The notes below the pieces were generated by a model. It was not told the origin of the DNA. It worked only from the letters and a program-made list of their open reading frames with translations, and searched no databases. Source: a phage. From it: 64,000 nucleotides of DNA. The stretch lies in NCBI GenBank assembly GCA_014686905.1, contig GCA_014686905.1_4093.1. One strand, written 5' to 3'. The translations under genes and the position numbers were made by a program. Shown piece by piece: positions 61,265-61,336 of the stretch. Position 1 is the stretch's first letter; every line of letters begins with the position of its first letter.

Positions 61265-61336
61265 GCAGGTAAAGTGTTGATGGCGGCATACAGTACTTCC
61301 GATTCTGGGGGTGGGGTTCAAATCCCCATACCTGCT
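61265..61336 (+). tRNA. divergent tRNA-Gly(TCC)-like gene or tRNA pseudogene
   Basis: Perfect 7-bp acceptor GCAGGTA/TACCTGC, T-arm TGGGG-TTCAAAT-CCCCA, anticodon loop CTTCCGA, but one anticodon-stem mismatch, A at position 8, no encoded CCA. Confidence 0.45.

What the first reader, a model, noticed from the sequence alone, without database searches (positions are those of the whole stretch)
61265..61336. Degenerate tRNA-Gly(TCC)-like element inside the MTHEEW array
A perfect acceptor stem and T-arm surround an anticodon arm with one mismatch (T-T), an A at position 8 and a wobble-rich D-stem. It may be a decaying tRNA or a divergent functional one.
Basis: seen in the sequence. Interest (0 to 1): 0.35.

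Follow-up and report, generated by a model that had tools for sequence, protein, structure and literature searches.

The report
Divergent phage glycine tRNA gene
This is a real but oddly built glycine tRNA gene of a giant E. coli phage. It is already annotated in public genomes, it probably still works, and it is ordinary.

Summary
Window 61265-61336 (+) is a 72-nt cloverleaf with anticodon UCC. ARAGORN calls it tRNA-Gly(tcc). The Rfam tRNA model gives 41.7 bits against a threshold of 29, the lowest of six tRNAs here, and Rfam's default filters skip it.

The window is an Asteriusvirus jumbo coliphage. Fifteen GenBank records already annotate this gene as tRNA-Gly, one with tRNAscan-SE score 46.7.

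A8 and the G-U pairs in the D stem are not signs of decay. A8 comes with U14, and 14:21 and 15:20 can pair. Phage T5 tRNA-Thr and tRNA-Ser1 share this design, and the T5 record notes Ser1 as a working suppressor. Five of six E. coli GlyRS identity elements are present.

The real weaknesses are U30-U40, G37, and a cloverleaf 9.7 kcal/mol above the minimum-energy fold. Only three alleles exist, so selection cannot be shown. Relatives carry a different, glyT-like tRNA-Gly(UCC), and one phage has both.

Best reading: a divergent, probably functional phage tRNA-Gly without an encoded CCA end, reading GGA/GGG. It is already known.

The parts
61265..61336 (+). tRNA-Gly(UCC) gene, 72 nt, no encoded CCA (the next bases are CAA)
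   Evidence: ARAGORN. Rfam RF00005 41.7 bits, E 1.8e-6. Annotated tRNA-Gly in 15 GenBank records of related phages.
61265..61271 (+). Acceptor stem, 5' strand GCAGGTA. It pairs 7/7 with 61329-61335 and gives G1:C72, C2:G71, A3:U70.
   Evidence: Sequence; Infernal alignment.
61272..61272 (+). A8, where nearly all tRNAs have U8. It is partnered by U14 at 61278, where A14 is usual.
   Evidence: Sequence. The same A8/U14 pair occurs in T5 tRNA-Thr and tRNA-Ser1.
61274..61289 (+). D arm GTGT-TGATGGCG-GCAT: a 4-bp stem with G10-U25 and U13-G22, and G18 G19 present. U14-G21 and G15-C20 can extend it to a 6-bp stem with the 4-nt loop AUGG.
61291..61307 (+). Anticodon arm CAGTA-CTTCCGA-TTCTG, with a U30-U40 mismatch (61294/61304). 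In isolation it is predicted not to fold (0.0 kcal/mol).
61298..61300 (+). Anticodon TCC (U34 C35 C36). It would read GGA and, by wobble, GGG.
61301..61301 (+). G37. The other three tRNA-Gly(UCC) sequences read here (E. coli glyT, phage A4 type, T5) have A37.
61308..61311 (+). 4-nt variable loop GGGG. With the neighbouring bases it forms an alternative hairpin (31-48, -5.4 kcal/mol) that hides the anticodon. G44 (61308) is U in phages SHEFM2K and UE-S1.
61312..61328 (+). T arm TGGGG-TTCAAAT-CCCCA, 5/5 pairs, with canonical T54 T55 C56 and A58.
61329..61335 (+). Acceptor stem, 3' strand TACCTGC.
61336..61336 (+). Discriminator U73, as in bacterial tRNA-Gly.
   Evidence: E. coli glyT read.
61247..61252 (+). 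TATAAT hexamer 12 nt upstream of the tRNA, inside the local motif AAATATAATA. No -35 partner was found. It is identical in all seven relatives aligned.
   Evidence: A promoter role is inferred, not shown.
61061..61237 (+). Upstream MTHEEW-family small ORF (58 aa; phrog_10970, function unknown).
61363..61578 (+). Downstream 71-aa ORF (phrog_25670, function unknown). The next MTHEEW copy follows at 61580-61762.

Best explanation
It is a phage-encoded, structurally divergent but functional tRNA-Gly(UCC).

Inferred mechanism:
1. It is transcribed with the neighbouring small genes of the tRNA region, or from the weak TATAAT element 12 nt upstream.
2. Host RNase P cuts its 5' end.
3. The 3' end is trimmed and given CCA by the host or phage CCA-adding enzyme.
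4. E. coli GlyRS charges it through U73, G1:C72, C2:G71, C35 and C36.
5. It reads GGA (and GGG), codons that this AT-rich phage uses more than its host.

What is shown: the cloverleaf, the scores, the identity nucleotides, the codon usage and the distribution among phages. What is inferred: transcription, processing, charging and decoding.
For: - Detection: ARAGORN call. Rfam tRNA 41.7 bits against gathering score 29. tRNAscan-SE 46.7 in the SHEFM2K record.
- Structure: all four arms are present, with U33, G18 G19, T54 T55 C56 and A58.
- Identity: five of the six E. coli GlyRS identity elements are present. The element list is established knowledge; the bases were read and compared with glyT.
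- Position 8: A8/U14 with 14:21 and 15:20 able to pair is the same design as T5 tRNA-Thr and tRNA-Ser1. The T5 record notes Ser1 as an effective amber suppressor after an anticodon swap. In my sample 3 of 4 A8 lineages have both extra pairs, against 5 of 46 U8 tRNAs.
- Mismatches: 8 of 52 sampled tRNAs have one anticodon-stem mismatch. These include T5 Lys and Leu, which are noted as convertible to suppressors.
- Alleles: 23 phage records and one metagenome contig hold only three alleles. Both changes keep the structure: A28G turns A-U into G-U, and G44U lies in the variable loop.
- Local conservation: against UE-S1 the tRNA has 2/72 differences, against 16% in the 250 nt on each side.
- Codon usage: GGA is 26% of Gly codons in the window's ORFs, against about 11% in E. 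coli (established knowledge). The other phage tRNAs also match A/U-ending codons the phage favours: UCA 31%, AGA 26%, AGU 32%.
- CCA: a sister genome identical in this region is reported to encode a CCA-adding enzyme and to have Gly among its 7 tRNAs (PMC11895373).
- Only copy: in this clade it is the only tRNA-Gly. The glyT-like copy found in relatives is missing behind its promoter at 63158.
Against: - It has the lowest score of the six tRNAs (the others score 50-70 bits). Rfam's default filters drop it. Five annotated records do not call it.
- The cloverleaf is 9.7 kcal/mol above the minimum-energy fold, against 0.0 for Arg and 3.1 for Asn next door. The isolated anticodon arm does not fold. 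An alternative hairpin hides the anticodon.
- G37 after C36 was seen in no other sampled tRNA-Gly.
- A3:U70 replaces G3:C70.
- Conservation is not decisive. The identity with 121Q is part of a 450-nt identical block. 22% of non-tRNA 72-nt windows (24% of all fully aligned windows) in the UE-S1 comparison are equally conserved.
- The scanner found no full promoter upstream.
- Many Asteriusvirus genomes have no tRNA-Gly at all, so the function is dispensable.
- No expression data were found.
Confidence: 0.6

Rival explanations
1. It is a decaying tRNA gene: a relic that still looks like a cloverleaf to gene finders but no longer works as a decoder. The weakened anticodon arm (U30-U40, G37) and misfolding would be the cause. 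It persists only because the PBECO4-like clade is young.
For: - Lowest CM score of the six tRNAs, and dropped by Rfam's default filters.
- tRNAscan-SE 46.7 is below the 55-bit level at which, as I recall it, that program starts its pseudogene checks.
- The anticodon arm has no predicted stability, and the cloverleaf is 9.7 kcal/mol above the minimum-energy fold.
- No selection is detectable against the regional background.
- It is confined to one shallow clade with no homologue elsewhere.
- tRNA-Gly is dispensable in the genus.
- Phage tRNA clusters do hold pseudogenes: T5 tRNA-Gln2 is flagged as one.
Against: - The acceptor, T and D stems have no mismatch at all.
- All the identity and tertiary-contact nucleotides one would expect to erode are intact.
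- The unusual 8/14/21/15/20 set is internally consistent rather than random, and it is shared with a T5 tRNA noted as functional.
- The two natural variants both keep the structure, and G44U removes a pair from the competing hairpin.
- No allele carries a disabling indel in 24 sequences.
Confidence: 0.25
2. It is a tRNA-shaped RNA kept for a job other than routine codon supply. One version is a tRNA-Gly variant whose altered anticodon arm or acceptor stem escapes a host tRNA-targeting defence enzyme. Others are a decoy, or an RNase P processing signal within the small-gene transcript.
For: - Phage tRNAs with changed anticodon loops have been proposed to evade host anticodon nucleases (PMC10264068). 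Phage tRNAs can overcome retron defence (PMC11555353, abstract).
- The departures here cluster in the anticodon arm (U30-U40, G37) and at 3:70.
- One phage, ELP-22, keeps this gene alongside a canonical glyT-like tRNA-Gly(UCC), which hints that the two are not redundant.
- T5 carries tRNA-like stable RNAs of unknown function in its tRNA cluster.
Against: - No defence enzyme aimed at tRNA-Gly(UCC) was identified here.
- The eLife paper does not mention Gly.
- Nothing in the locus links it to a defence or counter-defence gene: the neighbours are phrog families of unknown function.
- ELP-22 may simply be a recombinant.
Confidence: 0.12
3. It is a chance cloverleaf in AT-rich intergenic DNA, or a misread tRNA of another type, for example Arg(CCG) read one base over in CTTCCGA.
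For: The string CTTCCGA followed by the same T arm occurs in tRNA-Arg(CCG) genes of unrelated MAGs.
Against: - E = 1.8e-6 against all Rfam families.
- 53% G+C in a 33% G+C genome.
- Shifting the register by one base leaves 0 of 5 anticodon-stem pairs (sequence).
Confidence: 0.02

Closest known systems
Phage T5 tRNA-Thr(UGU) and tRNA-Ser1(UGA) (NC_005859.1)
   Same: - Coliphage tRNAs with A8 and U14 in place of U8 and A14.
- A D loop of the form T-G/A-N-T-G-G-N-G/A in which 14:21 and 15:20 can pair.
- T5 Thr also has an internal U-U mismatch in the anticodon stem (28:42).
- The T5 record notes Ser1 as an effective suppressor after an anticodon swap.
   Different: They have different anticodons and amino acids and share no more than generic tRNA similarity with this gene. 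T5 encodes CCA for them, and both have A37.
E. coli glyT (tRNA-Gly2, UCC), and the glyT-like tRNA-Gly(UCC) of phages A4, Turkey5, JNE01, ELP-22 and the Klebsiella RaK2 group
   Same: The same anticodon, U73, G1:C72 and C2:G71. They have the same presumed job of reading GGA/GGG and sit in the same phage tRNA region.
   Different: - Those have U8, A14, A37, G3:C70, a perfect anticodon stem and an encoded CCA.
- The A4 copy scores 56.1 bits.
- Identity to this gene is only 64%, so they are not homologous in any traceable way.
- They sit at a different site, behind the TTGACTAAATAGTTCAGTACTG promoter.
CCA-less tRNAs of phage T4 (established knowledge)
   Same: Phage tRNA genes without an encoded CCA. 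They need 3' trimming and a CCA-adding enzyme.
   Different: T4 tRNA-Gly is canonical. This comparison rests on memory and was not tested here.
T5 tRNA pseudogene (Gln2) and T5 tRNA-like stable RNAs (RNA1, RNA2, RNA3)
   Same: tRNA-shaped elements inside a coliphage tRNA cluster that are not, or may not be, decoders.
   Different: The present element keeps a full 7-nt anticodon loop, all four arms and the Gly identity set. ARAGORN's T5 Gln(CUG) call, which matches the gene the record flags as pseudogene Gln2, has two anticodon-stem mismatches in my table.

Membership tests
tRNA (Rfam RF00005) | Covariance-model score at or above the curated gathering score | tested here: met
   41.7 bits against 29, E 1.8e-6. 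With Rfam's default speed filters the hit is not reported at all.
tRNA (Rfam RF00005) | Four-arm cloverleaf with a 7-bp acceptor stem, 5-bp T stem, 7-nt anticodon loop and U33 | tested here: met
   There is one non-standard pair, U30-U40.
tRNA (Rfam RF00005) | Elbow nucleotides G18 G19 and T54 T55 C56, plus A58 | tested here: met
   D loop TGATGGCG and T loop TTCAAAT.
tRNA (Rfam RF00005) | U8, A14 and A21 (core tertiary contacts) | tested here: not met
   The gene has A8, U14 and G21. The same A8/U14 swap occurs in T5 tRNA-Thr and tRNA-Ser1, so this departure is not disqualifying.
tRNA (Rfam RF00005) | Cloverleaf is the thermodynamically favoured fold | tested here: not met
   The cloverleaf is at -17.8 kcal/mol and the minimum-energy fold at -27.5. 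The neighbouring Arg and Asn tRNAs are within 0.0 and 3.1 kcal/mol. Nearest-neighbour models ignore base modifications and tertiary contacts.
Bacterial tRNA-Gly, substrate of E. coli GlyRS (identity set from established knowledge) | Discriminator U73 | tested here: met
   T at 61336.
Bacterial tRNA-Gly, substrate of E. coli GlyRS (identity set from established knowledge) | G1:C72 and C2:G71 | tested here: met
   GC... at 61265-61266 pairs with ...GC at 61334-61335.
Bacterial tRNA-Gly, substrate of E. coli GlyRS (identity set from established knowledge) | G3:C70 | tested here: not met
   The gene has A3:U70 (61267/61333). glyT, T5 Gly and A4 Gly all have G3.
Bacterial tRNA-Gly, substrate of E. 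coli GlyRS (identity set from established knowledge) | C35 and C36 | tested here: met
   Anticodon TCC at 61298-61300.
Bacterial tRNA-Gly, substrate of E. coli GlyRS (identity set from established knowledge) | Actually expressed, processed and glycylated | not testable with these tools
   No expression or charging data were found in the literature searched.
tRNA pseudogene (tRNAscan-SE rule as I recall it: total below 55 bits and a low primary- or secondary-structure sub-score) | Total score below 55 bits | tested here: met
   46.7 bits, quoted in the SHEFM2K GenBank note for the G44U allele. tRNAscan-SE could not be run here.
tRNA pseudogene (tRNAscan-SE rule as I recall it: total below 55 bits and a low primary- or secondary-structure sub-score) | Primary-sequence or secondary-structure sub-score below the cut-off | not tested
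   The sub-scores are not available. None of the retrieved records that annotate this gene (121Q, UE-S1, SHEFM2K, SD-1_S14, ELP-22) flags the feature as a pseudogene. Failure of Rfam's sequence filter hints at a low primary-sequence score.

The most novel reading that the evidence does not exclude
This tRNA is a member of a distinct structural class of coliphage tRNAs: A8 with U14, a 6-bp D stem and a 4-nt D loop, so without the usual 8-14 and 15-48 tertiary contacts. Its extra changes in the anticodon arm (U30-U40, G37) and at 3:70 were selected to escape a host enzyme that attacks tRNA-Gly. That would explain why it replaced the glyT-like copy in the PBECO4 clade and sits beside it in ELP-22.
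Probability: 0.08. Interest if true: 0.45.

Novelty: already known. Interest (0 to 1): 0.12.

Why it matters
It matters little beyond correct annotation. The gene is already listed as tRNA-Gly in most related genomes and in at least one paper on them (Sharanji, PMC11895373).

Three modest points may be useful:
1. Position-8 and D-arm oddities in phage tRNAs should not be read as decay. They form a recurring, internally consistent design shared with T5 tRNAs.
2. Default Rfam filtering misses this gene, and five annotated records omit it, so phage tRNA counts depend on the tool used.
3. Asteriusvirus phages carry two unrelated tRNA-Gly(UCC) genes in different combinations. That makes a small natural experiment on why phages keep tRNAs.

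Tried and rejected
- **More divergent homologues, to test covariation.** IMG/VR pattern scans found only the 121Q genome (one search used a wrong gap and found nothing). The neighbouring 71-aa protein also led only to 121Q. A metagenome scan gave one contig with an identical tRNA. A GTDB scan for the same acceptor stem, T arm and anticodon gave nothing. A looser GTDB scan gave six unrelated loci; three hold a tRNA-Arg(CCG) at the match, and ARAGORN called no tRNA at the match in the other three.
- **A paralogue origin within the phage tRNA cluster.** Rejected: the best identity is 64%, which is the generic tRNA level.
- **Purifying selection from comparative data.** The identity with 121Q is part of a 450-nt identical block. 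The contrast with local flanks in UE-S1 gives a binomial P of 3.5e-4, but 22-24% of all 72-nt windows in the region are equally conserved. I treat this as inconclusive.
- **A sigma-70 promoter for the tRNA.** The scanner found none on the + strand upstream. There is only a lone TATAAT.
- **An alternative reading as Arg(CCG), one base over.** Rejected: none of the five stem positions would pair (sequence).
- **Expression data in the literature.** Searches of papers on phAPEC6, Asteriusvirus and PBECO4 found only tRNA counts and lists.
- **Function of the flanking ORFs.** Pfam gave nothing; PHROGs gave only families of unknown function.

Full report
**What the window is.** The 1-kb stretch around the finding is 100% identical to Escherichia phages IA-38, vB_EcoM_G17, phAPEC6, SP27, Sharanji and JP4. 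It is 99% or more identical to PBECO4 and several others. These are jumbo myoviruses of about 350 kb in the genus Asteriusvirus. The window has 33% G+C. Its last 3 kb hold a tRNA region with six tRNA calls: Gly(UCC), Ser(UGA), Arg(UCU), Ser(ACU), Met(CAU) and Asn(GUU).

**Checking the observation.**
- a 7/7 acceptor stem;
- a 5/5 T stem;
- one T-T mismatch in the anticodon stem (positions 30:40, window 61294/61304);
- A at position 8 (61272);
- a D stem with two G-T pairs (10:25 and 13:22).

ARAGORN calls tRNA-Gly(tcc) at 61265-61337. The Rfam tRNA covariance model gives 41.7 bits against a gathering score of 29, with E = 1.8e-6. This is the lowest of the six tRNAs; the others score 49.9-70.3 bits. 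When Rfam is run with its default speed filters at the gathering threshold, the hit disappears, both in the window and in the 121Q and UE-S1 loci. So the primary sequence is unusually far from the tRNA consensus, although the structure-aware score passes.

The SHEFM2K GenBank entry annotates the gene as tRNA-Gly(TCC) with tRNAscan-SE score 46.7, for an allele that differs only by G44U. Chance is excluded.

**Already annotated.** Twenty-three phage records hold the gene:
- 15 annotate it as tRNA-Gly, among them 121Q gene 119 'tRNA-Gly(tcc)' and UE-S1;
- 5 annotated records leave it out (PBECO4 twice, UB, phAPEC6, CRJP21);
- 3 carry no annotation at all.

The Sharanji paper lists a Gly tRNA (gp225) among seven tRNAs. 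It also reports a phage CCA-adding enzyme and a tRNA adenosine deaminase (PMC11895373).

**Are the oddities decay?** I tabulated 52 distinct tRNAs called by ARAGORN in the window, the related loci, E. coli K-12 and the phage T5 tRNA region. U8 is the rule (45 of 52). A8 together with U14 occurs in this gene and also in T5 tRNA-Thr(UGU) and T5 tRNA-Ser1(UGA).

The T5 Thr D arm (AA GCAT TGTTGGTG ATGC) has almost the same layout as the one here (AA GTGT TGATGGCG GCAT). In all three tRNAs, positions 14:21 and 15:20 can pair. That gives an extended D stem with a 4-nt loop that still contains G18 G19, which is what RNAfold predicts here and for T5 Ser1. Both extra pairs are possible in 3 of 4 A8 lineages but in only 5 of 46 U8 tRNAs. 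The sample is small.

The set A8, U14, G21 and G15/C20 is therefore internally consistent. The lack of a normal partner for base 15 at position 48 fits the same picture. This is not a scatter of hits. The T5 record states that tRNA-Ser1 becomes an effective amber suppressor when its anticodon is replaced, so this design is compatible with function.

G10-U25 and U13-G22 are ordinary pairs in real tRNAs (established knowledge). The design recalls the 6-bp D stem and 4-nt D loop of tRNA-Sec. That comparison is from memory and is only a resemblance.

**What remains weak.**
- U30-U40 is an internal mismatch. Single anticodon-stem mismatches occur in 8 of 52 sampled tRNAs, including T5 Lys and Leu, which are noted as convertible to suppressors. 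T5 Thr has U28-U42.
- G37 after C36 was seen only in this gene. E. coli glyT, the A4-type phage Gly and T5 Gly all have A37.
- The isolated anticodon arm is predicted not to fold (0.0 kcal/mol). An alternative hairpin pairs bases 31-37, including the anticodon, with U42-U48, which includes the G44-G47 run (-5.4 kcal/mol).
- The full cloverleaf is 9.7 kcal/mol above the minimum-energy fold. The neighbouring Arg and Asn tRNAs are at 0.0 and 3.1.

Such calculations ignore base modifications, tertiary contacts and bound proteins, so this is a warning and not a verdict.

**Identity and use.** The E. coli GlyRS identity set is U73, G1:C72, C2:G71, G3:C70, C35 and C36 (established knowledge). Five of the six are present; 3:70 is A:U. 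No CCA is encoded. The same is true of the window's Ser(ACU) and Asn tRNAs, and the phage is reported to encode a CCA-adding enzyme.

In 84 ORFs of at least 100 aa in the window, GGA makes up 26% of Gly codons, 12.4 per thousand. In E. coli it is about 11%, 8 per thousand (established knowledge). The other phage tRNAs likewise match A/U-ending codons that the phage favours: UCA 31%, AGA 26%, AGU 32%. This fits the usual codon-supply pattern.

**Comparative evidence.** Only three alleles exist in 23 records and one metagenome contig: the window type, G44U (SHEFM2K), and A28G plus G44U (UE-S1). A28G turns A-U into G-U. G44U lies in the variable loop and removes a pair from the competing hairpin.

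Neither comparison proves selection. The perfect identity with 121Q is part of a nearly identical block from about 61200 to 61650 in a region otherwise 55-90% identical. Against UE-S1 the tRNA differs at 2 of 72 positions, while the 250 nt on each side differ at 16% (binomial P = 3.5e-4). But 22-24% of all 72-nt windows in the aligned 4.4 kb are equally conserved, because the genomes are mosaics.

No homologue was found beyond this clade:
- IMG/VR holds only 121Q;
- the metagenome scan gave one identical copy;
- GTDB gave nothing relevant;
- no phage tRNA in the cluster is more than 64% identical.

**A second, unrelated tRNA-Gly(UCC) in the genus.** Phage A4 lacks this gene at the syntenic site. 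It has instead an unannotated, canonical, glyT-like tRNA-Gly(UCC) with an encoded CCA (L003 7423-7495, 56.1 bits). This lies directly behind the promoter TTGACTAAATAGTTCAGTACTG-TATAAT.

The same tRNA is in Turkey5 and JNE01. It is 94% identical in the Klebsiella RaK2, K64-1 and Muenster phages of the genus Alcyoneusvirus. BAU.Micro_ELP-22 carries both Gly genes, and both are annotated.

In the window the matching promoter copy at 63158 is followed at once by the sequence that follows the tRNA in A4, so the canonical gene is absent. WPEC3 and fEgEco12 have no tRNA-Gly at all.

So tRNA-Gly(UCC) is an accessory, exchangeable function in these phages. In the PBECO4-type clade the divergent gene is the only copy. 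This is mild support for function and leaves room for non-redundant roles.

**Local context.**
- The gene lies between a 58-aa MTHEEW ORF (61061-61237) and a 71-aa ORF (61363-61578), followed by another MTHEEW ORF (61580-61762).
- Six MTHEEW copies in 60803-62737 all match phrog_10970. The 71-aa ORF matches phrog_25670. Both families have unknown function, and neither has a Pfam match.
- 60990-61080 is an 87% direct repeat of 61509-61599, which covers the end of the 71-aa ORF and the start of an MTHEEW ORF. The spacing is 519 nt, so the tRNA sits inside a tandem duplication unit.
- No full sigma-70-type promoter precedes it. A TATAAT hexamer at 61247-61252, inside the local motif AAATATAATA, is identical in all seven relatives aligned.

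**Verdict.** This is a genuine tRNA-Gly(UCC) gene of PBECO4-type jumbo coliphages, and it is already in the databases. I rate 'divergent but functional' at about 0.6, 'relic on its way out' at about 0.25, and 'tRNA-shaped RNA with another role, such as defence evasion' at about 0.12. The question can only be settled by detecting the mature, charged RNA in infected cells. Interest is low.

Noticed in passing
window 63657-63747 (+): tRNA-Ser with anticodon ACU, that is A at the wobble position 34 (ARAGORN; Rfam 49.9 bits). It is annotated tRNA-Ser(act) in 121Q and is also present in WPEC3 alongside a Ser(GCU). As far as I know, A34 in bacteria is otherwise limited to tRNA-Arg(ACG). A sister genome is reported to encode a tRNA-specific adenosine deaminase (PMC11895373). 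AGU is 32% of Ser codons here.
   Followed up: partly
window 63756-63842 (+): tRNA-Met(CAU) of 87 nt with an extra arm in the variable region (GUCA-CAGUUAA-UGAC). That is unusual for a Met or Ile2-type tRNA. It is found whole only in a few genomes (G17, Sharanji, EC22.5-2). At that place 121Q has a different, ordinary 72-nt tRNA-Met.
   Followed up: partly
window 62749-62776, 63158-63186, 63618-63646 (+): Three exact copies of TTGACTAAATAGTTCAGTACTG followed by TATAAT or TAAAAT, a near-consensus sigma-70 promoter. The third drives the Ser-Met-Asn tRNA cluster. In phages A4 and ELP-22 the second is followed by a glyT-like tRNA-Gly(UCC), which is missing in the window.
   Followed up: partly
window 60990-61080 and 61509-61599 (+): An 87% identical direct repeat 519 nt apart, covering the 3' end of the 71-aa ORF and the start of an MTHEEW ORF. 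The first copy is a remnant without the rest of the 71-aa ORF, so the small-gene array grows by tandem duplication.
   Followed up: yes
window 60803-62737 (+): Six paralogous 54-60-aa ORFs that begin MTHEEW (phrog_10970, function unknown, no Pfam match) are interleaved with the tRNA genes. 62251-62411 and 62412-62572 are an 81% tandem pair.
   Followed up: partly
L002 (phage UE-S1) 5704-5777 (+): A tRNA-like gene with an 8-nt anticodon loop, CUUCAUAA. ARAGORN reports a four-base anticodon 'tcat', Rfam gives 51.8 bits, and the UE-S1 record does not annotate it. It may be a frameshift-type or damaged Met/Ile tRNA.
   Followed up: no
window 60207, 60975, 61244, 61340 (+): The motif AAATATAATA occurs four times on the + strand within 1.2 kb, each time between small genes. 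There are 5 in the whole window against 1.45 expected. It may be a phage promoter element or a gene-junction motif.
   Followed up: partly
L001 (phage 121Q) 4111-4192 (+): 121Q annotates a tRNA-Leu(taa) where the window has tRNA-Arg(UCU). Neither ARAGORN nor Rfam at the gathering threshold calls it. The tRNA sets of these phages differ gene by gene. The Met and Asn genes of 121Q and of the window do not appear to be the same genes: only part of the window's Ser-Met-Asn cluster matches 121Q.
   Followed up: no
L003 (phage A4) 7423-7495 (+): A canonical glyT-like tRNA-Gly(UCC), 56.1 bits, is not annotated in GenBank record ON286972.1. It is also unannotated in Turkey5, JNE01, RaK2 and K64-1.
   Followed up: yes
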